27,632 nucleotides of DNA. Origin: Chlamydiota bacterium (GTDB lineage Bacteria > Auribacterota > JACPWU01). The notes under the pieces are model-generated. The model was given only the letters and a program-made list of their open reading frames with translations. It made no database searches and was not told where the DNA came from. The stretch lies in assembly GCA_016196885.1 (NCBI GenBank), contig JACPWU010000043.1:1-27632 (forward strand). The letters are read 5' to 3'. Shown here in pieces: positions 5,086-23,201 of the stretch; position 1 is the first letter of the stretch, and every line of letters begins with the position of its first letter. The position numbers and the translations under genes are program-made.

Positions 5086-6069
5086 TTAAAGGTATCCTTT
5101 CTCCCGATACCACTCTCCCGTGCGTTTCAAGCCTTCTTTTAAATCGACCTTGGGCTGATAGCCTAATTCTCTCTTCGCCTTTTCAATGCTAAAGGCCCGG
5201 TTCTGACGAAACCAATCCACGCGGCGGCGGAAAATAGGAGGATCTATTCTTAAAGGCTTGTAAAGAATCTCACACCCCAGGGCGACCGTCCAAAGTGGCC
5301 AAAAGGGCAAGTGCTGAATCTTGAGCTTTACGCCCAGGCTCTGTGCAATCGCCAGAACCAGTTCGTTCAAGCTGTGATATTTTTCGTCCCCGATCAAATA
5401 AACCTCTCCATTTCCCCGATCCGAGGCCGAGGCCGCCTCAAAGGCATCTACCAAATTATCAATGTAAAGAGGATGATAATGAGCCTCTCCGCTCCCAAAC
5501 ATGAGAAAACGCCCCTGATTTACACGCTTAAATAGCATTAAAAACCGCTCGGGATCTCCAGGTCCATAAATCGCCGTGGGCCGCAAGGTCAGGATTTTGA
5601 GCCCCTTTCCTAAATATTCCTTCACCACCCGCTCCCCCTCATATTTCGTATATTGATAATAATCTTCGGGTGCAATGGGAGAATCTTCGGTGGCAGGTTC
5701 ACTCCTCACATGACCATGGATGCCGCAGGTGCTACAATTGACAAATTTTTTCACGCCATATTTAAGAGCAGCCTCCATGAGATACCGCGTCCCTTCAACA
5801 TTGACATCCCAATAGATCTTCTTGGGAAGATTCACTTTCCGAAACATGGCTGCCACGTGATAAACGACCTCGCAACCCTTCATCACTTGATCCACCAAGG
5901 CACGGTCAGACACACTGCCCAAATGAATCTCGGCCCCCATTTGATTCAATCCATCATAAAAGAGCCCCTTTTGATTATCAATCACGACCACGTGAGCCCC
6001 TCGCTTAATGAGCCGCCGCGTGAGGTGACTCCCCGTAAAACCCGTCCCGCCTGTGACCAAAATTTTCAT
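5086..6069 (-). CDS. NAD-dependent sugar-nucleotide epimerase/dehydratase (extended SDR)
   Basis: Rossmann motif VTGGTGFTGSHL and catalytic YxxxK (YQYTKYEGE). The ORF track starts at 6126. I prefer the ATG at 6069 (MKILVTGG), which has AAGGAGA at 6082-6076 with 6-nt spacing. Confidence 0.85.
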   Translation of the reverse strand: MKILVTGGTGFTGSHLTRRLIKRGAHVVVIDNQKGLFYDGLNQMGAEIHLGSVSDRALVDQVMKGCEVVYHVAAMFRKVNLPKKIYWDVNVEGTRYLMEAALKYGVKKFVNCSTCGIHGHVRSEPATEDSPIAPEDYYQYTKYEGERVVKEYLGKGLKILTLRPTAIYGPGDPERFLMLFKRVNQGRFLMFGSGEAHYHPLYIDNLVDAFEAASASDRGNGEVYLIGDEKYHSLNELVLAIAQSLGVKLKIQHLPFWPLWTVALGCEILYKPLRIDPPIFRRRVDWFRQNRAFSIEKAKRELGYQPKVDLKEGLKRTGEWYREKGYL

Positions 6070-6144
6070 CTTCATTCTCCTTAAAAATGATGCCGTTATA
6101 TTAAAGGGTCGAGGGGCAGGGGTCAAGGGGCAAGGAAAGAAACG

Positions 6145-9072
6145 TCAAGAGCTTTGTTTACAAATATCTTCCACATATTGATCCAAAAAAGCCAGGCGTT
6201 TCTTAATCCACGCCCGCATTTCTAGCACGGCACCCTCATGGCTCTCACCCGCCGGCAAAGGCCATTTTCTAAAATTTTCCGCGACCCGGTCGTGAATCCG
6301 AGCCTCCACATCATCCATTCTTTTCATCAGAGATTCTTCCAAAAGAGGCCCCTCCTTGAGTTCCTTCCATCGGTCACGCAAAGCCTCTTTATAACCGGGA
6401 AGCTCTCGCATCAACCGCTCGAACAAATGATCCGACAATATCCAATCCGAAGGACCCCCAAAAGTCTTATCGTAATCCCAAGGCACAATGAAAAATTTCT
6501 GATTCACTCCCTTGTCGCGACAAATAAAAAGATTGTGCTGAGGGCCATCCACATTGTAAGCAAAATTGATCAAAATCTGAAAATCCATTACATTCTCAAT
6601 GTCCATCAGCCCTTTCACCCGATGCTGAAATTCGTCTGTAGAAGCAAAACTCAAAAAACGAATAAATTCCTCATAAGGCCCCCAGTAGGCCTCATATTTT
6701 AAATCGGGTTCTTTTTGCTGGTAAGAATCTCTGCTTTCGTACTCAAAATTGGCATGCTTGCCCTTGGCCTTGTAAATCACACTGTGCGTTGAATCTTTTG
6801 AATGATAAGGCTTCAAACCTAGAACCGAAGCATTGACCTTCTCACAAATCTCATAAATTCCCTGATATTCTCCATTTAAAAAAATCTCGAGCAAGTGATG
6901 TTGGGGCGTATGTTCCGGATGTCCCTCTTTGGAAAAACTTCTAAACAAATCATAGGCCAATTGATTTTTCATAAAGGTGTGATCCACGTAACAAGACATC
7001 AGGATAAAATCAGTGGAGGGTTTGAAATTCCGATAGGTGAAAGGCGAGCGCAATCGAAGCTTGTAAGATTTTTTGGGATAATAAAGGGCTGTGTTTCCTC
7101 TCAACTTGATTTTTCCAGGGAGAAAAGGCGATTCCTTTGGGTCTAAATTCAAAAACTTGGCCAGGCAAGGAACGTACTGCCTGGAAAGGATGGGTCGGCT
7201 GGACAGAATTTGCAAAATGTCTAATTTTGATGAGGAAGGCAACACGATAAATCTCAGAGTTTTTACACCTTTCAGTTTTTCACAGGAAAGGTGAATCCGG
7301 ATCATGACTTCTTTGGATCCTCCATTCGTAGGTCTCAAAACCTTCCCCTCATGATTGATCACAGAAGGGTCGCTCGATTCAAACTCCAAATGGACGCCAT
7401 TCACCTCATCGAAAGAAAAATCTAAATTTTTAATAACGCCCTCTGCGCCAGGGTTGTCTCCCAAAAACATCTTTTCATTCAAACATTTTTCCACCCACTC
7501 GATCCGATGGAAAGGATCGTCTGGAATCTCTTCTCCCAACGCCTCAACAAGCTTCTTGCGATCCATGCTCACCCGATATAAGATCTCACGGCTGGGAACG
7601 GGTGAGGAGTGATCGCACAGGAAAAGAGGAACGTAGGTTTTGGCAAGATCATCATAGAGATGTAAAATTTCTTTCTTAAATGCGGGAATCCCTTTTAAAA
7701 AGGAAAGGATCTCCCAAGGCTCGTGTGAATCACCGGCATAACTGAAAAGTTCTTCATCTTGAAACTCATAAAGCCCTTGAAAAACACCATTCACCCAGAC
7801 ACCGCACATCTGGATTCCCAAGGGACTGCGATGATATTTTTTTCTCAAGGCCTCCTCCAAGAGAGGGCGTAAAATTCCATTTTCCTCTGGAGGAACAAAA
7901 ATGATGTTCCGCATCGAAAAGGGAGGGCGCCTTCCCAAAAAACGAATCACAAATGTCTTCTGACCTGTAGGATACATGCGTCCCACATCCCCTGCCAATT
8001 CAATCTGAGCCTTGTATAAATGATTCTCCGCTTCTATCCGAATGGCTCTGGATTTCGAAATTTTAGAGGGGATGATGCCATGTGTCATACTCCAATCATG
8101 GGATTGATTGAGGGCCTTTAAATCTTGCTTTGACAAAAAAAGGGAGAATCGCTTAAGAGAGGTCTTGTGAATGCGGCTTTCTGGTTGAAAGGGGTTGAGC
8201 AAATCCAATCCCTTCACAGTTTCCCAGACAATATTTCTTAAGGCCCGCCACATTTTGAGTTCAAAGACAAGCTGAGGTTTAAACCGCCACGAGAGCGATC
8301 GAGTCGCCTTCGCCTCTTGAAGCACCTCTTCAGGCTGTAAGGCCCGACTTCGAATCACCACCTCATCCAGAATAAAATGAGAGGAGTGACCTTGCTCGCA
8401 GCTCCCGAAAATCATTTCATCCGGGCGTTGAAAAATCTCAGAGACAGGTCGTGACGATTTCAACACGCCATCTTCCCATAAAGAGGCCTGATGCCGTTCT
8501 AGATCCACCACGCAAGCCACATGCGTGAAGGCATGCCGATGAGATTGAAAGGGAGTACAAAGAATTTGCTCTTCCTGACCCCGCACCGGTACTCTGAAAA
8601 AAATCTTTCCCCCTTCAAACCAAACATCATGGAGAGATCCTTGCCAGTTGGAAATGAAGAGCTGCGGTTTTTTTAAATTTAAAATCTTCACCCAAAAAGA
8701 AAGGCTGTAAGATCCCTGCAGTTGTGAGAAGGTAAACCTTGTTTGAAGAAAATTGTTCAAACGTCCATAAAACCAGCGTGCCTGGCCGTATTTCCCACGG
8801 ACAGACAGGATGCCTCGATTCACCGCTTTCTCATAGCCGATAGAATCAATCACCAGAGAATCGTCAAAGGACCAGCAGGCTGCGACTCCCGATTCTTTCA
8901 AATGACGGCTGATTTTGGTTTGGGCATGGCGAATTTTTTTATCTAAAATTTTGAAGAGGGAACCGCTGGTTTGATAGAAGAGAACGATCAGAAACAAAAG
9001 AACAAAAAATTTCAGCCATCGCCGTGGCTCAACAATTCTAGATCTTAAGCGAATAGAATGAAGAATGGACAT
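6145..9072 (-). CDS. Membrane-anchored multidomain CotH-family atypical kinase (TM + LamG-like + degenerate half-CotH + Ig-like + full CotH)
   Basis: TM FFVLLFLIVLFYQ. LamG-like block at about aa 60-245 (SYSLSFWVKI...). CotH hallmarks are KIKLRGNTALYYPKKSYKLRL, LNGEYQGIYEICEKV and HNLFICRD...FFIVPWDYDKTFG. The gene starts 23 nt downstream of the DUF4956 gene. Confidence 0.8.
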   Translation of the reverse strand: MSILHSIRLRSRIVEPRRWLKFFVLLFLIVLFYQTSGSLFKILDKKIRHAQTKISRHLKESGVAACWSFDDSLVIDSIGYEKAVNRGILSVRGKYGQARWFYGRLNNFLQTRFTFSQLQGSYSLSFWVKILNLKKPQLFISNWQGSLHDVWFEGGKIFFRVPVRGQEEQILCTPFQSHRHAFTHVACVVDLERHQASLWEDGVLKSSRPVSEIFQRPDEMIFGSCEQGHSSHFILDEVVIRSRALQPEEVLQEAKATRSLSWRFKPQLVFELKMWRALRNIVWETVKGLDLLNPFQPESRIHKTSLKRFSLFLSKQDLKALNQSHDWSMTHGIIPSKISKSRAIRIEAENHLYKAQIELAGDVGRMYPTGQKTFVIRFLGRRPPFSMRNIIFVPPEENGILRPLLEEALRKKYHRSPLGIQMCGVWVNGVFQGLYEFQDEELFSYAGDSHEPWEILSFLKGIPAFKKEILHLYDDLAKTYVPLFLCDHSSPVPSREILYRVSMDRKKLVEALGEEIPDDPFHRIEWVEKCLNEKMFLGDNPGAEGVIKNLDFSFDEVNGVHLEFESSDPSVINHEGKVLRPTNGGSKEVMIRIHLSCEKLKGVKTLRFIVLPSSSKLDILQILSSRPILSRQYVPCLAKFLNLDPKESPFLPGKIKLRGNTALYYPKKSYKLRLRSPFTYRNFKPSTDFILMSCYVDHTFMKNQLAYDLFRSFSKEGHPEHTPQHHLLEIFLNGEYQGIYEICEKVNASVLGLKPYHSKDSTHSVIYKAKGKHANFEYESRDSYQQKEPDLKYEAYWGPYEEFIRFLSFASTDEFQHRVKGLMDIENVMDFQILINFAYNVDGPQHNLFICRDKGVNQKFFIVPWDYDKTFGGPSDWILSDHLFERLMRELPGYKEALRDRWKELKEGPLLEESLMKRMDDVEARIHDRVAENFRKWPLPAGESHEGAVLEMRAWIKKRLAFLDQYVEDICKQSS

Positions 9073-9095
9073 TTTACCAGCCAGAATATGCGGAC

Positions 9096-9788
9096 CTACC
9101 GAATCCCACCCGGACGGCTAAAGAAAACATGCGCGGTTTGGACTTCAAACAATTCCCTCATGTCCTTTTGAAGCTGGGCTACATCTTTCTTCAAACCGGT
9201 GAAAGAAAATTGAAGAGAGGTCTTCCCTTCCTGAGAGGAACTTGTTTCCAAAACGTTTCGAGAAGCCCCCGTTTGAAGATAAGATATAATTTTATCCAAA
9301 TAAAGGCCCGCCTCCTGATCCTTGAGGGATAAGATCAAAATCCCATCCCTGCCATGATGCTTCCAAAAACGAATTCCCCGCCTTAAGAAAAGAGTAAGAA
9401 TCGCAACCAAATATAAAATTTCAAGCAATTGGAACTGGAAAATGGCGCAGGTGATGGAAGAGGCTATGACCAACATGACAAACCCGACTTCTTCAGGCTC
9501 TTTGATGGGAGTCCGAAAACGCACAATGGACAAGGCACCCAAAAGACCCAGAGAGAGAGGGAGAGACATTTGAATTCCCAAAAAAAGCGTCGTGATGGAA
9601 AGTCCCAACAGCGGGAAGGCGCGATGGACCTGGCTCCCCGTTCCCCGATGTTCATAAAAATAGCTGTAAAGAAAACTGGCCAGGAGAGACGAGGCCAGAG
9701 ACAAAAGAAGCGCCAAAATAAAACTACCCGGATCCATTTTATGGGCCACCTGTTGACTGATGGCCAACGTCTTAAAAATCTTATTCAT
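9096..9788 (-). CDS. DUF4956-family membrane protein
   Basis: Signature GLLGALSIVRFRTPIKEPEEVGFVMLVIA, about 4 TM helices and a roughly 90-aa soluble tail. The start was moved from 9881 to the ATG at 9788, which forms an ATGA overlap with the VTC stop codon (9785-9788). Confidence 0.8.
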   Translation of the reverse strand: MNKIFKTLAISQQVAHKMDPGSFILALLLSLASSLLASFLYSYFYEHRGTGSQVHRAFPLLGLSITTLFLGIQMSLPLSLGLLGALSIVRFRTPIKEPEEVGFVMLVIASSITCAIFQFQLLEILYLVAILTLFLRRGIRFWKHHGRDGILILSLKDQEAGLYLDKIISYLQTGASRNVLETSSSQEGKTSLQFSFTGLKKDVAQLQKDMRELFEVQTAHVFFSRPGGIR

Positions 9789-10471
9789 GCAGGAACTCCT
9801 TGAAGAATTTGAGAAAGCATGGCCGCATATTTCGAATACCCTTGAGGACGGAAACCCAAGCGAACCAAATCCGTCAACCAAGGGATGTCCATTGTGTGAT
9901 GTCCCTTCAATTCAAAGACAATCAGAGGAGCCAGGGTCTTCCCCAAAGAGGGGACCACTTCCTCATTGATCCAAGAGCTTCTGATTCGCACGTCCAGACT
10001 CACCCGAGCTCCCAAAGACGGGCAGACAAAGCGATGACGATCGTATTCAATCGAAAGGATCGGAAAAAGGGGACGGGGTATTTCCTGAAATTCTGCGAGA
10101 TGAGTTTCCCCCCAATCTTTTAAAAAATCCACATCCCATCTTCTCAACCGCTCAACGGGAATGAAAAACTCTTTGCGAACTTTTTTCCCTGCCTGCCCCA
10201 TTTTAGTCTTGACCTCTAAGAAAACCTTGACCTCCCTGAGCGAGGTTTTTGAAAGATCATCATACCAACGCAAACGCACCTTCGTTTTTTGATAATCTCC
10301 ATGGACTTTCTCATCATACAAATCCAAACGGGGGGTGTCATAGTAAATGCTAAAAACCGTGCCCTGCGGATAGAGGGGATCCTTCAAACAAACATGCCGA
10401 AGCCAACCCAAGGCAAAATCTTGGGCACCGAAGGCTGCCACCCACTTTTGTTCTGACCGAAGAGGATCCAT
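9785..10471 (-). CDS. VTC-domain protein (triphosphate-tunnel / polyphosphate-polymerase-like)
   Basis: FSIYYDTPRLDLYDEKVHGDYQKTKVRLRWY and VFLEVKTKMGQAGKKVRKEF match the charged beta-strand pattern of bacterial VTC/CYTH-like tunnel domains. At 228 aa the size is typical of stand-alone bacterial VTC proteins. Confidence 0.8.
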   Translation of the reverse strand: MDPLRSEQKWVAAFGAQDFALGWLRHVCLKDPLYPQGTVFSIYYDTPRLDLYDEKVHGDYQKTKVRLRWYDDLSKTSLREVKVFLEVKTKMGQAGKKVRKEFFIPVERLRRWDVDFLKDWGETHLAEFQEIPRPLFPILSIEYDRHRFVCPSLGARVSLDVRIRSSWINEEVVPSLGKTLAPLIVFELKGHHTMDIPWLTDLVRLGFRPQGYSKYAAMLSQILQGVPA

Positions 10472-10577: not shown

Positions 10578-11276
10578 TTATCTTTTCACCCCTTCCCCCT
10601 CAACCCACTGAATCGCATGACGAACCAATTCCGTCGCGTTATCCAATTTCATTTTTTCCTTAATGTTTTCTCGGTAGGTCTCCACCGTTTTCACACTCAA
10701 GTGCAATTGTTTGGCGACCTGACGTGTTGCAAAACCTTTTCCAATCATTTGAAAAACCTCCAACTCTCGATCGCTCAACCGTTCCACGGGAGAGACGCTT
10801 TTCTCAAAACGTCCCCCGATACTCTTTTCCAAAATCCGGGCCGTCATCTTTTGACTGACATAAACTTCGCCATCCACCACACAGCGAATCGCCACCAAAA
10901 CCTTGCCGATGGCTTCCTCCTTCATAATATACCCCCTGGCCCCCGCCCGAAGGACCCGCTCTGCATACAACGATTCATCGTGCATGGAAAGAACCAGTAT
11001 GGGAAGATCGGGATATCGGACTTTGATGTTTTTGATGAGATCAAGCCCGCTCATCCCTCTCAAAGAAATATCCACAATCACAACATCCGGACTCAAACGC
11101 TTGATGGCATCTAAACCCTGAGCACCCCCTTCTACATCCCCACACACCACCAAATCCTTTTCTTGATTGATCAATTGCGTCAACCCCTGTCTTACAACAG
11201 GGTGATCATCCACAACTAAAACTTTGATCTTACTAAGCTTTGTCCTCAAAACCATTTCTCCCACGTCCGTCTTCAT
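10578..11276 (-). CDS. NarL/FixJ-family response regulator (REC + LuxR-type HTH)
   Basis: REC domain motifs VLVVDDHP and VIVDISLRGMSG. HTH region LSDRELEVFQMIGKGFATRQVAKQLHLSVKTVETYR. I prefer the start at ATG 11276, which has AAGGAG with 8-nt spacing. The ORF track gives 11345. Confidence 0.85.
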   Translation of the reverse strand: MKTDVGEMVLRTKLSKIKVLVVDDHPVVRQGLTQLINQEKDLVVCGDVEGGAQGLDAIKRLSPDVVIVDISLRGMSGLDLIKNIKVRYPDLPILVLSMHDESLYAERVLRAGARGYIMKEEAIGKVLVAIRCVVDGEVYVSQKMTARILEKSIGGRFEKSVSPVERLSDRELEVFQMIGKGFATRQVAKQLHLSVKTVETYRENIKEKMKLDNATELVRHAIQWVEGEGVKR

Positions 11277-12489
11277 GCCCATCTCTCCTTTTAACATTTT
11301 CCAAGGAACACGATACCAAAGTTCCCCCCTTTGCCATTTTTCCAATCTCCAAAGAGGCGTGAATCATTTCCGCGCGATACCGCATGATCCGGATACCCAT
11401 TCCTTTGTGAGGGCTCAACCTCTTTGGAAATCCAACCCCATCATCTTTAACTTCCATCAAAAGTCTTCTCCCAATGTTCATCAACCGAATGGATATTTCA
11501 GAAGGCCGAGCATGTTTCACAGCATTGTAAACAGCCTCTTGGACAATCCGATAAAGATGGGTAGAAACCATGTTATCTTTGATGAGAATCGGACGATCAC
11601 ATTGGAAGAAACATTTCACATTGAATACTTTTTTAACATGCGAGGCCAATTCATCCAGGGCAGACATGAGCCCATGGGCCTCCAATTCCACAGGGTAAAG
11701 TCCCCGCGCCAAGCCCCGCGTTTCAATAACCGCTTGATTCACCAGCTCTACAATTTTTCTCATGTGAGACGCATGAGGGAGAGCCCTTTGAGTCAACTTT
11801 TTTTCCAGCACTTTTCCCATCAAGGCAATGCCCATCAATTGTTGAGATAATCCATCATGTAAATCCTGCCCGATCCTTCGCTGCTCCATGCCACTGATTT
11901 CCAAAATCTCTTTCTCCAACGCCCTACGCTCTTGAATCAACTGCCTCAACTGGTCGTTCGTGGCCCTCAACTCTGAGGTCCTTTCTTCCACTCTTTTTTC
12001 AAGTTGATCACGAGCCTCTAAAAGAGCCCCTTCCGTTTTTTTCAACTGGGTAATATCATTGTTGATTTCAAGAAAGGCAATGGGCTTCCCCTTTTCATCC
12101 CTCTGTAAGGTCCAACGGCTGGCCACAGTGACACGGGTCCCATCCTTTCTAAGATGCTTTAACTCTCCCTCCCAATAGCCTTTGCGAAGACAGACCTGGA
12201 TGGCCGAATCCGCAGATCTGGGAAACAGGGTCTTCAAAAATGAATGCACGTGCATTCCCATCGCCTCCTCGCGAGACCATCCGTAAAGGCGCTCCGCCCC
12301 CTGATTCCAATAAGTGATTCGATCCTTCAGATCCCGAATCATAATGGTATCATTGGCAAAGTCAATCATCTGCGCATGCCGCCGCAGGACTTCTTCTACC
12401 CGCCGACGCTCATCAAATTCCTTCCGAATCGCCTCCCGAACCTCTTGAGGAACGTTTCGAGAGTCCAAATATTTTTCTAAAGGTTCCAT
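11233..12489 (-). CDS. Cytoplasmic PAS-domain sensor histidine kinase (HisKA_3 + HATPase_c)
   Basis: PAS region (ITYWNQGAERLYGWSREEAMG), a coiled coil, H-box DLHDGLSQQL, and an ATPase N/G-box region (YNAVKHA, DDGVGF). No TM segment is present. The 3' end overlaps the response-regulator gene. Confidence 0.85.
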   Translation of the reverse strand: MEPLEKYLDSRNVPQEVREAIRKEFDERRRVEEVLRRHAQMIDFANDTIMIRDLKDRITYWNQGAERLYGWSREEAMGMHVHSFLKTLFPRSADSAIQVCLRKGYWEGELKHLRKDGTRVTVASRWTLQRDEKGKPIAFLEINNDITQLKKTEGALLEARDQLEKRVEERTSELRATNDQLRQLIQERRALEKEILEISGMEQRRIGQDLHDGLSQQLMGIALMGKVLEKKLTQRALPHASHMRKIVELVNQAVIETRGLARGLYPVELEAHGLMSALDELASHVKKVFNVKCFFQCDRPILIKDNMVSTHLYRIVQEAVYNAVKHARPSEISIRLMNIGRRLLMEVKDDGVGFPKRLSPHKGMGIRIMRYRAEMIHASLEIGKMAKGGTLVSCSLENVKRRDGHEDGRGRNGFEDKA

Positions 12490-15423: not shown

Positions 15424-17820
15424 ATGACCTACATTCTCACTCTAACCACCCTCATTTCCTGGACAGGTCTTCTTCTTGCGCAATTCCAACTCTTCAATTT
15501 ATGTTCTCTTTTCTCTATCGTTTTTCTCTTCGCATTCATTCTTAGAATTTTTTTCAAGGAAGAGTTTCCAAGTTTTAAACTCAAAATCCATTTCTCCAAA
15601 CACACCCTCTTTCTCACCCTCATCTTGTTGGCAAGTGCTCTTTTCTATCTTAAGCCCCATGAGTATATCACGGGTCATTGGGACCCAGGAGTTTACCTTA
15701 ACACCGGATATCACATCGCCCAACACGGTTCCATTGAAATCACAGATCCTCTCCTTTCACAAATGACGAGTGAAGAAATGAAAATCTTCGTGGATCCAAA
15801 GCCAGGAACTCCTCTCTATCCAGGTTTTTATCTGAAAAACGCACTCGATGGGACATTCATCCCCCAATTTTATCACGTCTATCCTGTCTGGATTTCCATC
15901 TTCTTTAAAATCTTTGGGGCCCATGGAGCGCTCTTCGTGAATTTCGTTTTCTCCCTTCTTGCCCTTTGGACATGGGCCCTATTGGTTGAAGAAATTTCCA
16001 ATCGGAGAGTCGCCTTCATGGCCACGATTCTATTAGGACTCTCTATTCCTCAAATCTGGATCACCCGATTTCCAGCTTCTGAAATCTTATCGCAATACTT
16101 CATTTTCTCAGTGCTTTACACCTTTTTAAAATTTGAAAAAGAAAAGAAAAAATTTTGGGGTGTCTTGGCGGGCCTTTCTTTAGGCGCAGCGCTCCTGACA
16201 AGACCCACGGGAATTCTACTTTTGCCAAACCTCGCCTTTCATCTGGCTTTCAGAGAACGTCCCAAACTTAAGCGATCTGACTTGAGCTGGGCCACTCCTT
16301 TGGCCCTTGCCTCTCTCCATCTTGTGCTACAGGGCTATTTCTTCACAAAATATTATCTTCACGAAATTTCTCATTTTTTCATTCTTAATTTACAAGAAAG
16401 AAAGATCATTCTTTTAGGAACCCTCACCCTTTCAACTTTTTTTCTTTTCCACCTCATCTGGAGAAAAACGAAATGGAAATATTCTGTCGGAACGCTTGCA
16501 AAATGGCTCTTGGCAACGATTCTACTCAGCCTCGGAATATATGCTTATTTTATCCGGCCCCGATCGGGATATGGACCTGACGACCCAAATCTCATTTGTC
16601 TCAGTTGGTTTATGGGACCCCCTTCTATTATTTTGGCCATTTTTGGAATCACGGCTTGGAGTGATCAAGAATTAAAACGAAAAAACTTATTTGTCTTTAG
16701 CTCTTTCTTAAGTGAATGCCTTTTTTTTCTTTATAAAAAGAGCATCCTATCCACCTACCCTTGGGCCTTGAAACGTTTTGTTCCCCTGGTGGTTCCGTCC
16801 ATTGCCATCTTTGCAGCCTACGCGCTTGAAAAAATGACAAGAAAAATCCCCCGAGCCCGTGGCCTTATTTTATCAGGGCTTTGCGGCCTTCTGATTCTTC
16901 CACCGCTTGTCAAAGGGCACGCCTTTTTGAGAGAGAGCGACCAAAAAGGGATGATCTCATTTTTAACGGAGCTCGCTCAAAAATTGGATCCCGAGGGGAT
17001 TTACCTTCTGGAACGCGATTTTTTGGCCGTTCCCCTCCAGCATCTCTGCGAGCTCAAAACTTTGGTTCTCCCAGAACCCTCGAAATTTCCGGAAGTGGAG
17101 CCTGTCCTCATTCGATGGATCCGTGAGGGCCAACACCTTTATTATCTGGGCCATCCCGAAAAACCCTACAGTGAAAAATTACAATTCGAACGCGCACAGA
17201 TTCAACTGCCTCAACTCAACACCTCTTTGCTAGAGCCAAGCTACATGAGCTATCCAAAAAAGATCAAGAAAATCCAAATAGCACCCTCTCTTTATAAAAT
17301 CTCAGAGCTGACATCAGCCATTGAGAAAGAAAAGGATTTTTGGATTGACATCGGGGAAGAGAGAATCGGTCTCCTCAACGGCTTTGACCGAGCCAAGCGT
17401 TTTAAGGAAAAAGAAAAAAAATCTTTTTTCTGGGCCCGATGGACGACCGGCAAAGCCTCCCTCATCCTTCCATGCTTCAATTCTCAAATCCCACAAGAAT
17501 TGATTCTCCACATAAGCGGCTTTAGAGGAAAAACATCTCCTTCCAATCAAGACGAGATTTCCAGACTCTCTCTTTGGGTGAATGACACCCTACTTGCCAA
17601 AGACATCGCCCTTCCCAATGATTTTACAACCCTTCGCCTCCCCATTCCTGAAAAATTGCTAGACCGCAAAGAAGGGCGATGCATTCTCACGCTAGAATCC
17701 AATGTCTGGAAACCTTCTGAAAAGGGGATCAAAGGATTCCCGTATCAATTAGGGGTTTTGTTAGATTGGATTAAGATTCGGAAATCTCTGCACCCACAGG
17801 ATGACCTTCGTAAACCCTAA
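15424..17820 (+). CDS. Polytopic membrane glycosyltransferase, GT-C fold (ArnT/PMT GT39-like) with soluble C-terminal domain
   Basis: There are many hydrophobic helices in the first ~500 aa. The first loop, HWDPGVYLNTGYHIAQHG, resembles the acidic D-x-G-x-Y loop-1 motif of ArnT/PMT_2 enzymes. A roughly 300-aa hydrophilic C-terminus follows. Confidence 0.6.
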   Translation: MTYILTLTTLISWTGLLLAQFQLFNLCSLFSIVFLFAFILRIFFKEEFPSFKLKIHFSKHTLFLTLILLASALFYLKPHEYITGHWDPGVYLNTGYHIAQHGSIEITDPLLSQMTSEEMKIFVDPKPGTPLYPGFYLKNALDGTFIPQFYHVYPVWISIFFKIFGAHGALFVNFVFSLLALWTWALLVEEISNRRVAFMATILLGLSIPQIWITRFPASEILSQYFIFSVLYTFLKFEKEKKKFWGVLAGLSLGAALLTRPTGILLLPNLAFHLAFRERPKLKRSDLSWATPLALASLHLVLQGYFFTKYYLHEISHFFILNLQERKIILLGTLTLSTFFLFHLIWRKTKWKYSVGTLAKWLLATILLSLGIYAYFIRPRSGYGPDDPNLICLSWFMGPPSIILAIFGITAWSDQELKRKNLFVFSSFLSECLFFLYKKSILSTYPWALKRFVPLVVPSIAIFAAYALEKMTRKIPRARGLILSGLCGLLILPPLVKGHAFLRESDQKGMISFLTELAQKLDPEGIYLLERDFLAVPLQHLCELKTLVLPEPSKFPEVEPVLIRWIREGQHLYYLGHPEKPYSEKLQFERAQIQLPQLNTSLLEPSYMSYPKKIKKIQIAPSLYKISELTSAIEKEKDFWIDIGEERIGLLNGFDRAKRFKEKEKKSFFWARWTTGKASLILPCFNSQIPQELILHISGFRGKTSPSNQDEISRLSLWVNDTLLAKDIALPNDFTTLRLPIPEKLLDRKEGRCILTLESNVWKPSEKGIKGFPYQLGVLLDWIKIRKSLHPQDDLRKP

Positions 17821-19276
17821 CCGTTCTTTCTTCAAACTTCCAGCGGAGAGAAAACCAAGGCCCCTCCAACGTCCCCGTACGCAAGTGCTCCACACTGCAC
17901 AGCGTCAGTTTAAAATCTCTCATCCCGGGTTTCTCATGTTTTGAAATCAAAAAAACCTTTCCCCCCTCTTTCAACCAACGGCGAATCTCTCTCAAAAAAT
18001 CTGTATCCAATCCTTGCGGGGGTACAAAATAAATTTTCATCCCATACAATTTCTTTAAAAGAGAGACTTCTCTTTCATCGTCTGAAAAAATGAGATCGTC
18101 CGGCAAAAAAGAGCGGCTCAAAGACCCATAAAATCTCAGAAGCCCATCCGATTCCCTGGCCTTCAAATAGGGTCTTGCAACATTTAAAGATAAAAGCATC
18201 ATGACCAGCACTCCCCCTACAGCAAAAACGCGTGCAACTTTTCCCAGGCGAAAAGCAAAAGAAAAGAAAGCCGATACCCAAAGAATCAAAGCGGGCAAAG
18301 CCCAAAAAACGAAAGGAGCCAAATCCTTCAAAGGAGCTTCGACGCCCCCTTTCCAATGAAAAACCGTCCAAAGGGGACAAAGAACAAACCCCATCAAAAG
18401 AAGGAAATATTTTCTCTGCGATTTGTCCCCCCTTAAAAAAATCATCCCCGCCCAAGCCCCTATAAAAAAAACAGCCCAAACCCACATTTCCAAACGGGCC
18501 AGGTATGCCCCGATCGCGCTCAAAAATGAAAACATCATCCAAAGAAAATGTTTTTCCTCAAAAAAAAGGCATGCGAAGTAAAAAGCAACCAGACCCAAAG
18601 CCTGGGCCAAGAGATAACCTTCCGGTAATCGGGCAAACCAAATCATACAGAAATGGGTTGCCAGAAGGAGCGCGGCACAAATGCCAGCCACTCGATCAAA
18701 AAGGCGCCTCGCTAGGCAGAAAAGAGCCAAGAGCGAAATCAAACTTAGGATTGGAACAACCATCAAAGACAGTTGCAAACCCAGAAACAAATGAAAAATC
18801 CCAAACCAAATTGAGAGCAAGGGGGATGCTCTCAACCCCTGAAGGTCCAAGGCCCATCCGTTTGCCTTCGCGAGTTCGCAAGCCTGAATAAAGGGATGGG
18901 CGATATTTTCCGAAGGCCGGAAAAATAAAATAAGACCCAACATCAAGGCAAGGGCGAGAAAAACATCTTCCCAGTTCAACCTAAAAACATCTGAATATTG
19001 AATCAAACGAAATTTCCTGAGAGAAAAAAAGACCAGAGAAAAAAAGAGCGGCGCCAACATCATCGCCTCTCGAGAAAAAGCAGACACAGTAGACATCCCC
19101 AAACCCAAAAAAGAGGAAATCAAAAGGCTTAATAAAACTCGCACGGAAAAAGCCTCCATGACAGAACTGTCTCGGGGCAAACTCAAGAACGTCCTCGTGA
19201 GGGCATATCCTGGCAAGAAAAAAAAGAGGGAGAGCGCCATCAAAGCTTGTAACAGCAAACTCAAGCGATCACTCAT
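17771..19276 (-). CDS. Polytopic membrane protein with soluble C-terminal domain (possible GT-C-like glycosyltransferase)
   Basis: About 10 hydrophobic helices and an FFLPGYAL motif after TM1. The C-terminal segment (LIFSDDEREVSLLKKLYGMKIYFVPPQ) parallels the C-terminal region of the 798-aa protein. No specific family was recognised. Confidence 0.5.
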   Translation of the reverse strand: MSDRLSLLLQALMALSLFFFLPGYALTRTFLSLPRDSSVMEAFSVRVLLSLLISSFLGLGMSTVSAFSREAMMLAPLFFSLVFFSLRKFRLIQYSDVFRLNWEDVFLALALMLGLILFFRPSENIAHPFIQACELAKANGWALDLQGLRASPLLSIWFGIFHLFLGLQLSLMVVPILSLISLLALFCLARRLFDRVAGICAALLLATHFCMIWFARLPEGYLLAQALGLVAFYFACLFFEEKHFLWMMFSFLSAIGAYLARLEMWVWAVFFIGAWAGMIFLRGDKSQRKYFLLLMGFVLCPLWTVFHWKGGVEAPLKDLAPFVFWALPALILWVSAFFSFAFRLGKVARVFAVGGVLVMMLLSLNVARPYLKARESDGLLRFYGSLSRSFLPDDLIFSDDEREVSLLKKLYGMKIYFVPPQGLDTDFLREIRRWLKEGGKVFLISKHEKPGMRDFKLTLCSVEHLRTGTLEGPWFSLRWKFEERTVRVYEGHPVGAEISES

Positions 19277-20595: not shown

Positions 20596-21015
20596 TCAAT
20601 GACCCAATATCTTCATCAACCGTACAGCCACTGAGGCAACCCAACGTGCCCCTTGAATAGCCTTCTTCGCATCGCGAGAAGAATATTCCTCCGTTGGAAT
20701 AAAATCAATATCTCCGTAAAAAGAGAGCTCCCTATCTTTTCTCAACTCTTTTGAAATCAAAGCCATTTTCTTGAGAGAAATCCGTATTTGACTAGGAAAT
20801 TTGTCCCGATGTTCTATCAGGAAAGAACCCACGTCATGAATTTTAGGAGGATCGATTCCAACGGTTCTGAGCATTCCCTTTAAAGCCAATTCAACAACTT
20901 CCTGGGATTCTCTTATAACATCTGAATAATCTTCTTCTTTAAAGAGAAAACCCAAGTACTTCAGTCTCTTCTCAATTTTTACCATATAACTCTGAGCAAG
21001 ATTCAAATTGGTCAT
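20596..21015 (-). CDS. HEPN-domain protein (toxin partner of MNT)
   Basis: ELALKGMLRTVGIDPPKIHDVGSFL and RKDRELSFYGD fit the HEPN family that pairs with minimal nucleotidyltransferases. It shares a 4-nt overlap with the upstream MNT gene. Confidence 0.7.
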   Translation of the reverse strand: MTNLNLAQSYMVKIEKRLKYLGFLFKEEDYSDVIRESQEVVELALKGMLRTVGIDPPKIHDVGSFLIEHRDKFPSQIRISLKKMALISKELRKDRELSFYGDIDFIPTEEYSSRDAKKAIQGARWVASVAVRLMKILGH

Positions 21016-21503
21016 ATTTCAAAAATCTCCCCCGGCTTATAATCCGGTTTCAATTCCCAATACCATGCACTCCCATACCATATTCTCCTTGAACCCAACT
21101 CCTTCAAGCGGGCTCTCAAACGCTCGAGCCTCTTAAAAAAGAAACGATCCCGATCCAGAAGAATCTTCGCATCATAAACCATATCTAAAAAAAGAGGACT
21201 TCCAAATTCTACCTCCTCAGGACTTTTGATAATGGGAGAAAAATAGGTATCAATCCCTTTCTTGCGTAGTTTTTTCACCAAAGGCTCAAGGCGATTTTCT
21301 ATTCTTTCAAACTCTCGCACCCGCCTCATTCGTCCTCTTGGGAGATCTTTCACCACCAACAAGAAATCTAAATCAGAATTAAACCTCTGAGTTTCTCGGG
21401 CTACCGAGCCAAATATAACGAGAGAAACAAGGCTTTTTCCATAAAATAATTTTGCCTGCCTTAAAAGACTTTTTTGAAGTTCCCTAAAAGACGATTTCAA
21501 CAT
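21012..21503 (-). CDS. Minimal nucleotidyltransferase (MNT) antitoxin-type protein
   Basis: Pol-beta-superfamily NTase motif FGSVARETQRFNSDLDFLLV. It lies immediately upstream of the HEPN gene and overlaps it. Confidence 0.8.
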   Translation of the reverse strand: MLKSSFRELQKSLLRQAKLFYGKSLVSLVIFGSVARETQRFNSDLDFLLVVKDLPRGRMRRVREFERIENRLEPLVKKLRKKGIDTYFSPIIKSPEEVEFGSPLFLDMVYDAKILLDRDRFFFKRLERLRARLKELGSRRIWYGSAWYWELKPDYKPGEIFEI

Positions 21504-21959: not shown

Positions 21960-22264
21960 AAAAAGCGAATATTTTCTTCGATGGCCGGCCAGCGGGAATT
22001 CTGACCGAAGCAAACGGGCATTATATTTTTGCATACAGAAAAGATTACAAAGGCCCTTCGATCTCGCGGACCCTTCCACGTGAAAAAGAACGATTTGAAT
22101 TTGAGGGATTTCCTCTCTTCTTTGATGGACTTCTTCCCGAAGGCGTGAACCTCGAAGCCTTTTTAAGGAAAACCAAAATTGACCGTAGGGATTATTTCAG
22201 CCAGATTTTAGCAGTGGGACATGATCTTGTCGGCGCTGTGACGGTAGAGGAATGGAATGAGTAA
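21956..22264 (+). CDS. hipS: HipS-like protein (stand-alone HipA N-terminal subdomain)
   Basis: IFFDGRPAGILTE...FAY and FFDGLLPEG...AVGHDLVGAVTV match the HipA N-terminal (couple_hipA) domain, here encoded as a separate 102-aa ORF. Confidence 0.8.
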   Translation: MKKANIFFDGRPAGILTEANGHYIFAYRKDYKGPSISRTLPREKERFEFEGFPLFFDGLLPEGVNLEAFLRKTKIDRRDYFSQILAVGHDLVGAVTVEEWNE

Positions 22265-23201
22265 AATAAATATTTGCGCTATTACTTACGGCGATATTCC
22301 CTCAGGTGAGCACTATTCTCTGCAAGGATTAAAACTCCTTTCACCTCAACTCAAGAAACTTGAGCCGCTTCATTTGACGCTCGAAGAACAGCGTGAGGAA
22401 GCAGCGGCGCGTGCAGGAAAAATGTCGATTCAAGGGGTACAGGTTAAATTAAGCGCCAGGCTTGCCGTTTCGAGAGGCCAATTCAAGATTGTGGATCGAG
22501 GCGGTACTTATATTTTGAAACCTGCCCCAGCGGGTTATCGTGAAGTCCCGGAGAATGAAGATTTAACTATGCACCTTGCGAGAGCGGCGGGTATTCAAGT
22601 GCCCGTGCATGGATTGGTCTATGCCAAGGATGGAACACGAACCTATTTCATCAAACGGTTTGACCGCAGAAAAAGCAAGAAACTCTATCTTGAGGATTTT
22701 GGCCAGCTTCTTGGATTGGCGCGAGAAGTTAAATACGACACCTCGATGGAAGAATTTGCTGGGGCGGTTCAAAGATATGCCACGTTTCCTGCGCTTGAAT
22801 GCCGGGAGTTTTTTCTTCGGACGATTTTCTGCTTTCTCACGGGCAATGAGGATATGCACGCCAAAAATTTCTCTCTTTTCTCAGAAGATAATCATGTCTT
22901 CAAACTCGCCCCGGCCTATGACTTTTTAAATAGCACGATTGTCATGTCTGGGAAATCGAGGGAAGAACTTGCGGTGCCGCTCGCAGGGAAAAAATCAAAA
23001 TTGACACGTAACGATCTCATAAAATACTTTGGGCAAGAACGATTGGGTTTAGCTGAAAGAACCATCCAAAGCTGCCTCAAGCAGTTGCAAGACGCATTCC
23101 CAGAATGGGAGCGTCTCGTCCAGCGAAGTTTTTTAAGTGAGAAAATGAGAAAGGCATATTGGGATTTATTGACCGAGCGACGGGAGAGGTTGAAACTATG
23201 A
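22257..23201 (+). CDS. hipT: HipT-like Ser/Thr kinase toxin (HipA C-terminal kinase core)
   Basis: Gly-rich loop GKMSIQGVQVKLS (S57-I58-Q59), YILKP lysine, catalytic loop GNEDMHAKNFSL (D199/H201/K203/N204) and Mg-binding APAYDFLNS (D222). It overlaps hipS by 8 nt. Confidence 0.85.
   Translation: MSKINICAITYGDIPSGEHYSLQGLKLLSPQLKKLEPLHLTLEEQREEAAARAGKMSIQGVQVKLSARLAVSRGQFKIVDRGGTYILKPAPAGYREVPENEDLTMHLARAAGIQVPVHGLVYAKDGTRTYFIKRFDRRKSKKLYLEDFGQLLGLAREVKYDTSMEEFAGAVQRYATFPALECREFFLRTIFCFLTGNEDMHAKNFSLFSEDNHVFKLAPAYDFLNSTIVMSGKSREELAVPLAGKKSKLTRNDLIKYFGQERLGLAERTIQSCLKQLQDAFPEWERLVQRSFLSEKMRKAYWDLLTERRERLKL

What the first reader, a model, noticed from the sequence alone, without database searches (positions are those of the whole stretch)
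6145..10471. Translationally coupled VTC / DUF4956 / CotH-kinase cassette: candidate uncharacterised membrane polyphosphate system
Three consecutive minus-strand genes are packed like one operon. There is an ATGA overlap at 9785-9788 and only a 23-nt gap at 9073-9095.

- The first gene encodes a soluble VTC (triphosphate-tunnel) domain. This is the fold that forms the catalytic polyphosphate polymerase of the eukaryotic Vtc4 subunit.
- The second encodes a ~4-TM DUF4956 protein with the invariant-looking SIVRFRTPIK motif.
- The third encodes a 975-aa membrane-anchored protein ending in an intact CotH atypical-kinase domain (WDYD and RGN...PKKSYKL motifs).

In eukaryotes, VTC couples polyP synthesis to translocation through its own TM domain. 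Here the tunnel domain and a membrane protein are separate genes. My inference is that DUF4956 acts as the membrane conduit or partner, and that the externally exposed CotH/LamG protein uses or modifies the exported product or a surface substrate. I know of no experimental description of this trio.

The cassette sits directly downstream of a PAS kinase / NarL regulator pair and upstream of an epimerase and an efflux pump.
Basis: partly seen in the sequence, partly recalled or inferred. Interest (0 to 1): 0.75.

Follow-up and report, generated by a model that had tools for sequence, protein, structure and literature searches.

The report
Conserved bacterial VTC–DUF4956–CotH envelope cassette
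Three tightly packed genes (a polyphosphate-polymerase-like tunnel enzyme, a very conserved small membrane protein and an exported CotH-type kinase) form a real, widespread bacterial module whose biochemistry is untested but whose gene association was already noted beside Gram-positive Pel biofilm operons.

Summary
Three minus-strand genes encode a soluble VTC domain (9785-10471), a 230-aa DUF4956 membrane protein (9096-9788, ATGA overlap) and a 975-aa anchor–LamG–aBig–CotH protein (6145-9072, 23-nt gap). All pass Pfam cut-offs.

The VTC protein keeps the aligned Vtc4 tunnel residues, and its confident model matches yeast VTC domains far better than other tunnel enzymes. CotH keeps both catalytic Asp residues.

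In 79 DUF4956-anchored loci (one genome per species, several phyla), VTC is adjacent in effectively all. CotH is present in 68 of 71 testable loci. No other neighbour exceeds 14 of 79. Cassette CotH proteins nearly always carry an N-terminal signal or anchor.

Best reading (about 0.4): a VTC-type polymerase docks on DUF4956 and passes polyphosphate outward, where the exported CotH modifies an envelope glycan or protein. This is inference.

Caveats: DUF4956 shows no detectable similarity to the yeast VTC membrane subunits, and exported CotH proteins also occur without the pair.

The trio is not undescribed. Two Pel papers list cotH, a polyP polymerase gene and DUF4956 as pel-accessory genes, without biochemistry, and one says the trio is absent outside pel. 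Here it is pel-independent.

The parts
9785..10471 (-). VTC-domain protein, 228 aa, soluble; predicted cytoplasmic triphosphate-tunnel enzyme of the Vtc4 (polyphosphate polymerase) branch
   Evidence: Pfam VTC 6e-23. No hydrophobic segment. Profile vs Vtc4 3g3q E=1e-10, with window R66/R68, K88, K97, Y143/R145, E187, S213/K214 on Vtc4 R264/R266, K281, K294, Y359/R361, E426, S457/K458; these are invariant in 97 homologues. AF2 pLDDT 93.6. Top 13 Foldseek PDB hits are all yeast Vtc4/3/2.
9785..9788 (-). ATGA overlap: the VTC stop overlaps the DUF4956 start (translational coupling)
   Evidence: Read directly. The same -4 overlap is the commonest spacing in 68 related loci.
9096..9788 (-). DUF4956 membrane protein, 230 aa: N-terminal amphipathic helix, about 4-5 membrane helices with invariant polar loops (YExRGTGSQVHR 45-56; SIVRFRTPIKEPEE 87-100), and a C-terminal ACT-like beta-alpha-beta-beta-alpha-beta domain (149-222)
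   Evidence: Pfam DUF4956 1.5e-11. 50-70% identity across phyla, with 37 invariant columns in 63 sequences. AF2 model pLDDT 78. The C-domain's best PDB match is the MgtC C-domain 2lqj, E=0.012.
9073..9095 (-). 23-nt spacer between the DUF4956 stop and the CotH start
   Evidence: Read directly.
6145..9072 (-). 975-aa anchored LamG-aBig-CotH protein
   Evidence: ORF. Domains. 48 of 67 cassette-adjacent CotH proteins in related loci share this N-terminal architecture.
8953..9009 (-). N-terminal signal-anchor of the CotH protein (aa 22-40)
   Evidence: Kyte-Doolittle 2.02. An equivalent hydrophobic segment, usually preceded by basic residues, occurs in 58 of 65 cassette CotH proteins.
8323..8718 (-). 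Laminin_G_3 / concanavalin-A-like lectin domain (aa 119-250)
   Evidence: Pfam 2.5e-11.
7240..7449 (-). aBig_2 Ig-like domain (aa 542-611), marginal
   Evidence: Pfam 26.6 bits vs cut-off 27. The same domain is called in homologues.
6184..7110 (-). CotH atypical-kinase domain (aa 655-963) with D842 and D866, the counterparts of B. subtilis catalytic D228 and D251
   Evidence: Pfam 7.9e-51. Alignment to B. cereus CotH 5jd9, E=3e-10. Catalytic residues from PMC7821199. D866 is invariant in 51 cassette CotH domains.
5086..6126 (-). SDR epimerase/dehydratase-family gene directly downstream; possibly co-transcribed, facultative partner
   Evidence: Pfam Epimerase 1.5e-42. A homologue lies within 10 kb in only 10 of 79 loci, but one is present next to the cassette in the closest relative, L001.

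Best explanation
This is a self-contained three-gene envelope module. Step 1 (fold and residues shown, activity inferred): the soluble VTC-domain protein is a Vtc4-type triphosphate-tunnel enzyme that makes polyphosphate from ATP in the cytoplasm. Step 2 (association shown, mechanism inferred): it works as an obligate pair with the DUF4956 membrane protein, translated from an overlapping start codon. DUF4956 is probably an oligomer. Its invariant basic/acidic loops (R48, R56, R90, R92, K96; E46, E97, E99, E100) would receive the chain at the tunnel exit and pass it across the cytoplasmic membrane, as the unrelated transmembrane subunits do in the yeast VTC complex. Its C-terminal ACT-like domain would be a cytoplasmic regulatory sensor. 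Step 3 (location well supported, chemistry inferred): the membrane-anchored, extracytoplasmic LamG-Ig-CotH protein has intact kinase catalytic residues. It would use the exported phosphate polymer, in a compartment that lacks ATP, to phosphorylate or polyphosphorylate an envelope polymer. The target is most likely a surface glycan, given the lectin-like domain and the glycan-biosynthesis genes that often surround the cassette.
For: Families confirmed. Vtc4 catalytic residues align to invariant columns. The confident model (pLDDT 93.6) matches yeast VTC tunnel domains at E 1e-12 to 3e-10, against 6e-7 or worse for YgiF, CYTH cyclases and ThTPase. VTC is adjacent to DUF4956 in effectively all of 78 testable species-level loci, and CotH is present in 68 of 71, across Verrucomicrobiota, Kiritimatiellia, Lentisphaerae, Auribacterota, Acidobacteriota, Spirochaetes, Rokubacteria, Phycisphaerae and Deltaproteobacteria. 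The tight spacing is conserved. No other neighbour family occurs in more than 14 of 79 loci. DUF4956 is far more conserved (50-70% identity) than its VTC partner (30-46%), as expected for a tightly constrained membrane machine. CotH catalytic Asp residues are present. An N-terminal signal/anchor occurs in 58 of 65 cassette CotH proteins. The S. intermedius homologue's relative was reported in a secretome. Glycan context: GT4, GT-C, DegT, methyltransferases and SDR in the window; similar genes in L001; AlgX, GT2-GtrA, UbiA and HAD in D. thiodismutans; pel operons in Gram-positives. Established knowledge: yeast VTC couples polyP synthesis to translocation through its membrane subunits (PDB 8i6v and 7ytj appear among the hits).
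Against: There is no biochemical evidence for any step. DUF4956 has no detectable sequence or fold similarity to the VTC membrane subunits or to any solved channel. Its most conserved segment is modelled at low confidence. No genuine VTC-DUF4956 fusion was found. The pair occurs without CotH in a few loci (L004/L005, L019, L070). Exported CotH proteins with signal peptides occur with no VTC/DUF4956 nearby, so an exported CotH does not strictly need an adjacent polyP source. No protein-kinase-like enzyme is known to use polyP as a donor (own knowledge). In 13 of 51 cassette CotH domains the catalytic Asp is Asn. The Pel preprint's authors proposed that the polyP stays cytoplasmic.
Confidence: 0.4

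Rival explanations
1. Cytoplasmic polyP with a membrane regulator. VTC makes polyP that stays in the cytoplasm. DUF4956 is only a membrane tether or regulator, with an MgtC-like architecture of membrane domain plus ACT domain, that ties synthesis to phosphate, Mg2+ or energy status. CotH is a separately acting exported kinase whose co-regulation reflects a shared envelope or biofilm programme. This is essentially the view of the S. intermedius Pel preprint.
For: The preprint argues that polyP remains cytoplasmic because the other VTC subunits are absent, and assigns its DUF4956 protein to MgtC with an ACT domain. The best fold match of the DUF4956 C-domain is the MgtC C-domain 2lqj. No channel-like fold match was found. 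Exported CotH proteins exist without the pair.
Against: It does not explain why CotH accompanies the pair in 96% of testable loci with conserved order and minimal spacing. DUF4956 does not match Pfam MgtC and does not align to the MgtC-family protein YhiD (hhalign probability 0.4%). The extreme conservation of the membrane helices and loops is more than a tether would need. Own knowledge: cytoplasmic VTC-made polyP is toxic in yeast when uncoupled from translocation.
Confidence: 0.25
2. Exported polyP is itself the product, for example a surface or matrix polyanion. The LamG-CotH protein is not a kinase here. It would be a binding, tethering or processing protein that fixes polyP to a glycan, or trims it.
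For: A lectin-like LamG domain and an Ig-like domain precede CotH. In 13 of 51 cassette CotH domains the catalytic Asp is Asn. The association with matrix polysaccharide loci. Fungal CotH proteins act as surface invasins (papers listed).
Against: The window protein and most homologues keep both catalytic Asp residues, and the metal-binding Asp is invariant. The G659, K667 and D697 columns are also conserved, consistent with an active site under selection.
Confidence: 0.15
3. The VTC-domain protein is not a polymerase. It would be a tunnel hydrolase or cyclase, such as a triphosphatase or an NTP-processing enzyme, and DUF4956 a transporter or sensor for its small-molecule product.
For: The triphosphate-tunnel superfamily is functionally diverse, and YgiF, CYTH cyclases and ThTPase all appear as weaker fold matches. 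Yeast Vtc2 and Vtc3 share the fold but are considered non-catalytic (own knowledge). The counterpart of Vtc4 K200 could not be aligned.
Against: Every aligned Vtc4 catalytic residue is invariant. The VTC structures beat all other tunnel enzymes by about five orders of magnitude in E-value. Pfam reports only VTC at E up to 0.01, not CYTH.
Confidence: 0.12
4. Chance juxtaposition of three unrelated genes.
For: None beyond the variable outer context of the cassette.
Against: VTC is adjacent in all 78 testable loci and CotH is present in 68 of 71, in one genome per species across many phyla, with conserved order and overlapping or near-touching reading frames.
Confidence: 0.01

Closest known systems
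cotH / polyphosphate-polymerase (VTC) / DUF4956 accessory genes of Gram-positive pel operons (Whitfield et al., bioRxiv 10.1101/768473 = PMC7112168; S. intermedius SIR_1592-1594, bioRxiv 10.1101/2024.04.20.589940)
   Same: The same three families, contiguous and co-oriented. The CotH is predicted to be secreted with intact catalytic residues. The VTC protein is cytoplasmic with tunnel residues. DUF4956 has about 4 membrane helices plus a C-terminal ACT-like domain. All are untested biochemically.
   Different: The window has no pel operon. The host belongs to a diderm lineage (PVC group). The CotH has an anchor-LamG-aBig N-terminus rather than a C-terminal FN3 domain. There is no DUF4832 glycoside hydrolase. 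The preprint reported that the trio was not found outside pel operons, whereas 79 pel-independent loci were found here.
Eukaryotic VTC complex (Vtc4/Vtc3/Vtc1; PDB 3g3q, 8i6v, 7ytj)
   Same: Tunnel-domain fold and the aligned catalytic residues. A cytoplasmic catalytic domain genetically tied to a membrane component.
   Different: The catalytic domain is a separate 228-aa protein with no SPX domain and no membrane helices of its own. The membrane partner, DUF4956, shows no detectable relation to the VTC membrane subunits. A CotH kinase is a third partner with no counterpart in yeast.
Bacillus CotH spore-coat kinase (PDB 5jd9; B. subtilis CotH)
   Same: CotH domain with conserved catalytic Asp pair, RG...KKSY and WDYD motifs.
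   Different: Bacillus CotH is a stand-alone protein of about 360 aa acting on coat proteins CotB and CotG in the mother cell. This one is 975 aa, membrane-anchored, predicted extracytoplasmic, carries lectin-like and Ig-like domains, is in a non-sporulating lineage, and is linked to VTC/DUF4956.
MgtC family (PF02308; E. coli YhiD, M. tuberculosis MgtC C-domain 2lqj)
   Same: The same overall layout as DUF4956: a small polytopic membrane domain followed by an ACT-like C-terminal domain. The C-domain is the best, though weak, fold match.
   Different: No Pfam MgtC match in 15 DUF4956 proteins. hhalign probability 0.4% against YhiD, which itself matches MgtC at 5e-39.

Membership tests
VTC domain / Vtc4-type polyphosphate polymerase (PF09359) | Profile match above the curated cut-off | tested here: met
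   82 bits vs cut-off 23, E=6e-23
VTC domain / Vtc4-type polyphosphate polymerase (PF09359) | Closed beta-barrel triphosphate-tunnel fold closest to Vtc4 | tested here: met
   AF2 pLDDT 93.6, pTM 0.89. Top 13 Foldseek PDB hits are Vtc4/Vtc3/Vtc2 at E 1e-12 to 3e-10; the next tunnel enzymes are at 6e-7 or worse.
VTC domain / Vtc4-type polyphosphate polymerase (PF09359) | Tunnel residues R264, R266, K281, K294, Y359, R361, E426, S457, K458 of Vtc4 | tested here: met
   They align to window R66, R68, K88, K97, Y143, R145, E187, S213, K214 (chain position +185). All are invariant in 97 homologues.
VTC domain / Vtc4-type polyphosphate polymerase (PF09359) | First-strand lysine (Vtc4 K200) | tested here: inconclusive
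   The HMM alignment to 3g3q starts after this strand. Window K9 (E7-x-K9, at least 90% conserved, on strand 6-13 of the model) is the likely counterpart by position only.
VTC domain / Vtc4-type polyphosphate polymerase (PF09359) | ATP-dependent polyP synthesis | not testable with these tools
   Needs an enzyme assay.
Eukaryotic VTC complex architecture | SPX domain and C-terminal transmembrane helices on the catalytic subunit; Vtc1-type membrane subunits | tested here: not met
   Only the VTC domain is found and there is no hydrophobic segment. The DUF4956 model has no fold match to VTC membrane chains among the top PDB hits.
DUF4956 (PF16316) | Profile match above the curated cut-off | tested here: met
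   44.8 bits vs cut-off 30.6. All 15 aligned homologues match.
MgtC family (PF02308) | Profile match or profile-profile similarity of the membrane domain | tested here: not met
   No MgtC hit at E up to 5 in 15 members. hhalign vs YhiD gives probability 0.4%. YhiD is a single sequence, so this is a weak test.
MgtC family (PF02308) | ACT-like C-terminal domain | tested here: inconclusive
   A beta-alpha-beta-beta-alpha-beta domain is predicted. The best PDB match is the MgtC C-domain 2lqj, but at E=0.012 among many ACT and ferredoxin-like hits.
CotH kinase (PF08757) | Profile match above the curated cut-off over the full domain | tested here: met
   173.9 bits, profile positions 1-322 of 322.
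CotH kinase (PF08757) | Catalytic Asp (B. subtilis D228) and metal-binding Asp (D251) | tested here: met
   Window D842 and D866 align to the corresponding Asp residues of 5jd9. Inactivating mutants D228Q and D251A are described in PMC7821199.
CotH kinase (PF08757) | Protein kinase activity with ATP | not testable with these tools
   Needs an assay. The donor (ATP or polyP) and the acceptor are unknown.
Pel-accessory cotH/PPP/DUF4956 cassette (Whitfield et al.) | Contiguous cotH, VTC-type polymerase and DUF4956 genes | tested here: met
Pel-accessory cotH/PPP/DUF4956 cassette (Whitfield et al.) | Contiguity with a pelDEA(DA)FG operon | tested here: not met
   No Pel families among the Pfam hits of the 21 large minus- and plus-strand ORFs scanned. 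No neighbour family occurs in more than 14 of 79 related loci.

The most novel reading that the evidence does not exclude
Bacteria have a third, VTC-type route to polyphosphate, besides PPK1 and PPK2, that is built for export. The tunnel enzyme feeds polyP through a DUF4956 channel across the cytoplasmic membrane. There it serves as the phosphoryl donor for an extracytoplasmic CotH-fold kinase that phosphorylates surface glycans. That would solve the problem of how a kinase can work in an ATP-free compartment.
Probability: 0.2. Interest if true: 0.85.

Novelty: new variant of a known kind. Interest (0 to 1): 0.58.

Why it matters
If the proposed mechanism holds, three things would follow.

1. 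The first bacterial VTC-type polyphosphate polymerase would be defined. Bacterial polyP synthesis is currently attributed to PPK1 and PPK2.
2. DUF4956, a family with about 3,600 clusters at 50% identity, would gain a function as the membrane partner or conduit.
3. It would explain how exported CotH/Fam20-like kinases are supplied with phosphate outside the cytoplasm.

It would also bear on biofilm biology, because the same trio accompanies Pel loci in streptococci, clostridia and bifidobacteria and sits in C. perfringens NELoc-2.

Even without the mechanism, this work corrects a published statement. The trio is a pel-independent module that is widespread in diderm phyla.

Tried and rejected
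I switched to DUF4956 as the anchor.
2. Apparent DUF4956 fusions, P0354 (PMT_2 + DUF4956 + BPD_transp_1) and P0367 (DUF4956 + BPD_transp_1), were examined as possible Rosetta-stone evidence. I rejected them as chimeric assemblies or gene predictions: the sequence switches abruptly and one has a frameshift-like tail.
3. Apparent single-ORF VTC+DUF4956 hits in L020 and L072 come from my stop-to-stop ORF calling plus probable frameshifts, not from fusions.
4. MgtC homology of DUF4956 found no sequence support.
6. No plasmid-borne copies were found.
7. The CotH N-terminal region (aa 41-640) has no relative with a solved structure.
8. The original CotH structure paper (Nguyen et al. 2016) is not in the held library, so nucleotide-binding residues other than the two Asp could not be checked.
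9. Promoter and terminator scans gave nothing above background and no sites in the junctions between the three genes.
10. Large clusters of 'conserved neighbours' in the ORF clustering were shadow ORFs overlapping DUF4956 or CotH.
11. A regulatory link to the adjacent PAS kinase and NarL regulator is not conserved in relatives.

Full report
**1. Observation**

The three minus-strand ORFs exist exactly as described.
- The VTC gene (9785-10471, 228 aa) ends '...gcATGAataag'. Its TGA stop therefore overlaps the ATG of 'MNKIFK...' at 9788.
- The longest DUF4956 ORF starts at a TTG at 9881. Homologues are 230-232 aa and begin at the aligned Met, so 9096-9788 is the real gene.
- The DUF4956 stop is followed by a 23-nt spacer and then the ATG of the 975-aa CotH gene (6145-9072).
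- Pfam places all three above curated cut-offs: VTC 6e-23, DUF4956 1.5e-11, CotH 7.9e-51 over the whole 322-position model. It also finds Laminin_G_3 at residues 119-250 and a marginal aBig_2 at 542-611. NCBIfam has no model for any of the three.
- The flanks are as stated: a PAS/HisKA_3 kinase and NarL-type regulator upstream, and an SDR epimerase plus a HlyD/ABC/2xFtsX pump downstream.
- Further upstream lies a surface-glycan locus: two methyltransferases, a GT4, a PMT_2-type GT-C, a DegT aminotransferase and unannotated polytopic membrane proteins.
- The window is identical to a contig of a MAG labelled 'Chlamydiae bacterium'.

**2. Is the association real?**

Using a DUF4956 alignment as anchor, a scan of one genome per species found at least 581 confirmed relatives. 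The best 80 gave 79 loci. I called ORFs and searched them with HMMs built in-session.

| Test | Result |
|---|---|
| VTC directly upstream of DUF4956, same strand | 75 of 79 loci |
| VTC in the remaining 4 | Present but displaced in 3 (VTC-CotH-DUF4956 order in L006 and L007; missed by my distance cut-off in L045); 1 untestable |
| CotH directly downstream of DUF4956 | 61 loci |
| CotH upstream of VTC (spirochaete order CotH-VTC-DUF4956) | 6 loci |
| CotH elsewhere in the locus | 1 locus |
| CotH untestable (contig ends) | 8 loci |
| CotH absent | 3 loci |
| CotH present among testable loci | 68 of 71 (96%) |

- The hosts span Verrucomicrobiota, Kiritimatiellia, Lentisphaerae, Auribacterota, Acidobacteriota, Spirochaetes, Rokubacteria, Schekmanbacteria, Phycisphaerae and Deltaproteobacteria.
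- VTC-to-DUF4956 spacing is 30 nt or less in 62 of 68 loci, and the -4 overlap is the commonest value. DUF4956-to-CotH spacing is 30 nt or less in about 72% with a crude ATG-only start call.
- After discarding shadow ORFs, no other neighbour family occurs in more than 14 of 79 loci: GT2 in 14, SDR in 10, an ABC ATPase in 9, a hexapeptide acyltransferase in 8.
- The trio is therefore an autonomous module that lands in variable, often glycan-related, contexts.
- Independent look-ups agree. An Acidobacteriota MAG has VTC-DUF4956-CotH beside unrelated metabolism genes. The closest relative has VTC-CotH-DUF4956-CotH next to SDR, GT4 and methyltransferase genes. Cultured Desulfonatronum thiodismutans has CotH-VTC-DUF4956-CotH among AlgX/SGNH, GT2-GtrA, GDSL, HAD and UbiA genes. 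One IS-rich locus has the pair without CotH.
- The dependence runs one way. Four shorter stand-alone CotH genes have no VTC or DUF4956 nearby, though two sit at a contig edge.

**3. The parts**

*VTC protein.*
- It is soluble, with no hydrophobic segment.
- A 30-sequence profile hits Vtc4 (3g3q) at E = 1e-10. Taking chain position +185 as the full-length number, window R66/R68 = R264/R266, K88 = K281, K97 = K294, Y143/R145 = Y359/R361, E187 = E426 and S213/K214 = S457/K458. All are invariant in 97 homologues.
- The first-strand lysine (K200) was not covered by the alignment. Window K9, in a conserved E-x-K on strand 6-13, is its likely counterpart by position only.
- The AF2 model is confident (pLDDT 93.6, pTM 0.89).
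- Its 13 best PDB matches are all yeast Vtc4, Vtc3 or Vtc2 tunnel domains (E 1e-12 to 3e-10). YgiF, an archaeal tunnel enzyme, CYTH cyclases and ThTPase follow at 6e-7 or worse.
- It therefore belongs to the VTC branch of the tunnel enzymes, but lacks the SPX and membrane parts of Vtc4.

*DUF4956.*
- It is strikingly conserved: 50-70% identity across phyla, 66% mean column identity, and 37 invariant columns in 63 sequences. Its VTC partner shows only 30-46%.
- Invariant residues cluster in two polar loops, Y-E-x-R-G-T-G-S-Q-V-H-R (45-56) and S-I-V-R-F-R-T-P-I-K-E-P-E-E (87-100), and in a Gly/Ser/Pro-rich helix (75-89).
- The AF2 model (pLDDT 78) has an N-terminal amphipathic helix, helices at 20-44, 54-74, 78-92, 98-115 and 119-144, and a beta-alpha-beta-beta-alpha-beta C-domain at 149-222. 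The most conserved stretch has the lowest confidence. This would fit a site that forms only in an oligomer or complex, which is inference.
- The basic cluster after the last helix (R137, R138, R141, K144, R147) suggests a cytoplasmic C-domain. Whether there are 4 or 5 membrane passes is unresolved.
- Foldseek against PDB matched only the C-domain. The best hit was the MgtC C-domain 2lqj at E = 0.012, among many ACT and ferredoxin-like folds, and no VTC membrane chain appeared.
- No MgtC relationship is detectable by Pfam or by hhalign against E. coli YhiD (probability 0.4%).
- The family has 3,590 representatives (50%-identity clusters) at E ≤ 1e-3 among 1.84 billion proteins, and 1,425 at E ≤ 1e-10.

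*CotH protein.*
- It has one hydrophobic segment at 22-40. Both flanks are basic, so the positive-inside rule alone is ambiguous for this protein.
- 58 of 65 cassette CotH proteins pass the hydrophobicity cut-off for an N-terminal segment, and most of those shown have a basic stretch before it, as in a Sec signal or anchor. The downstream LamG and Ig-like domains are typical extracytoplasmic modules.
- A homologue of the S. intermedius CotH-like protein was reported in a streptococcal secretome.
- The kinase domain aligns to B. cereus CotH 5jd9 (E = 3e-10), conserving RG...KKSY, D842-G-x-x-H-N and P-W-D866-Y-D. These Asp residues correspond to B. subtilis D228 and D251, whose mutation inactivates the kinase (PMC7821199).
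- D866 is invariant across 51 cassette CotH domains. Position 842 is D in 33, N in 13 and E in 5.

**4. Mechanism**

Shown:
- a Vtc4-like catalytic tunnel;
- an obligate genetic pairing with a highly constrained membrane protein;
- a near-obligate third partner that is an exported, catalytically intact CotH.

Inferred:
- The VTC protein polymerises phosphate from ATP.
- DUF4956, probably as an oligomer, receives the chain and translocates it. This is by analogy with yeast VTC, where synthesis is coupled to passage through the membrane subunits (structures 8i6v and 7ytj appear among the hits).
- The CotH enzyme sits where ATP is unavailable and uses the exported polymer to phosphorylate an envelope polymer. 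A glycan is the likeliest target, given the LamG domain and the surrounding genes. [quoted passage not shown]

I put this at about 0.4. The main weaknesses are:
- no biochemistry for any step;
- no structural precedent for DUF4956 as a channel;
- no known polyP-using kinase of this fold;
- signal-bearing CotH proteins that lack a neighbouring pair.

Rivals:
- polyP stays cytoplasmic and DUF4956 is an MgtC-like regulator, which is the Pel preprint's view (0.25);
- exported polyP is the product and CotH-LamG binds or tethers it (0.15);
- the tunnel enzyme is not a polymerase (0.12);
- chance juxtaposition (0.01 or less).

**5. What is already known**

- The trio is not undescribed. Whitfield et al. 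list CotH, a 'poly-phosphate polymerase', DUF4956 and DUF4832 as accessory genes contiguous with pelDEA(DA)FG in streptococci and clostridia, and with a DGC/PDE gene in bifidobacteria.
- The S. intermedius preprint analyses SIR_1594 (secreted CotH-FN3), SIR_1593 (VTC-like, tunnel residues present) and the third gene (4 TM plus ACT, 'MgtC family'). It proposes that polyP stays cytoplasmic and states that the combination was not found outside pel operons.
- C. perfringens NELoc-2 carries two VTC genes, each followed by a 222-226-aa membrane protein annotated 'tubulin/FtsZ', then CotH and glycan genes. From size and position that membrane protein is probably DUF4956, but I did not check its sequence.
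- NCBI already names these proteins 'polyphosphate polymerase domain-containing'.
- No paper in the held library characterises a bacterial VTC protein or DUF4956. DUF4956 otherwise appears only in transcriptome tables.
- New here: pel-independence and breadth in diderm phyla, the statistics of order and coupling, the strong conservation of DUF4956 compared with VTC, the consistent export signal on cassette CotH, the one-way dependence, and the catalytic-site variants.

**6. Verdict**

This is a real, strongly conserved and biochemically uncharacterised module.
- Novelty: a new, pel-independent, diderm, LamG-anchored variant of a gene cassette already described bioinformatically.
- Interest: 0.58.

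Noticed in passing
window 6184-7110 (CotH domain, D842); loci L008, L018, L032, L043, L045, L048, L049, L051, L053, L056, L057, L062, L067: In 13 of 51 cassette-linked CotH domains the catalytic Asp (B. subtilis D228 position) is Asn, and in 5 it is Glu. Most Asn variants, and one Glu variant, share an 'N-x-N-G-Y-P-F'-like motif plus a 4-residue insertion holding a conserved His-Asp/Glu pair. These may be pseudokinase paralogues or may use a relocated catalytic base. The window protein is the canonical Asp type.
   Followed up: partly
L001/L006 (8790-15179 in L001), L008, L049, L086 (5206-12676): Several loci carry two LamG-aBig-CotH paralogues flanking or following VTC-DUF4956. D. thiodismutans also has an extra LamG-only protein.
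   Followed up: partly
window 17771-19276(-), 23196-25292(-), 25289-25990(-), 26152-27597(-): Four ORFs have no Pfam match. Three are polytopic membrane proteins (10, 5 and 5 hydrophobic segments) and coincide with the AT-skew spikes at 18-19 kb and 24-26 kb. They are probably uncharacterised glycan polymerase, flippase or transferase components of the surrounding surface-polysaccharide locus.
   Followed up: partly
window 21012-21503(-) and 22257-23201(+): A minimal nucleotidyltransferase (NTP_transf_2) gene and a HipA_C kinase-domain gene interrupt the glycan locus. They may be toxin-antitoxin-type elements. GC content dips to about 0.40 at 21-22 kb.
   Followed up: no
window 10578-11345(-) vs 11233-12489(-): The longest ORF of the NarL-type regulator (TTG start) overlaps the 3' end of the histidine-kinase gene by 113 nt. 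The receiver domain starts at residue 42, so a later Met is probably the true start, giving a short overlap or tight coupling.
   Followed up: no
P0354, P0367 (protein database entries): These database proteins join the DUF4956 membrane region to halves of ABC-importer permeases, and in one case to a PMT_2 domain. They look like chimeric assemblies or gene predictions rather than real fusions.
   Followed up: yes
window as a whole; L001/L006, L007, L013: The source MAG is labelled 'Chlamydiae bacterium'. The closest homologues of the VTC and DUF4956 proteins come from Auribacterota ('Aureabacteria') and unclassified MAGs. The large surface-glycan locus is unlike classical Chlamydiae, so the taxonomic label may be imprecise within the PVC group.
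   Followed up: no
PMC2879425 (C. perfringens NELoc-2, CP4_0461 and CP4_0464): The 222-226-aa 'tubulin/FtsZ GTPase' cytoplasmic-membrane proteins that follow each VTC gene in NELoc-2 are probably misannotated DUF4956 proteins, judging by size, location and position. Their sequences were not checked.
   Followed up: no
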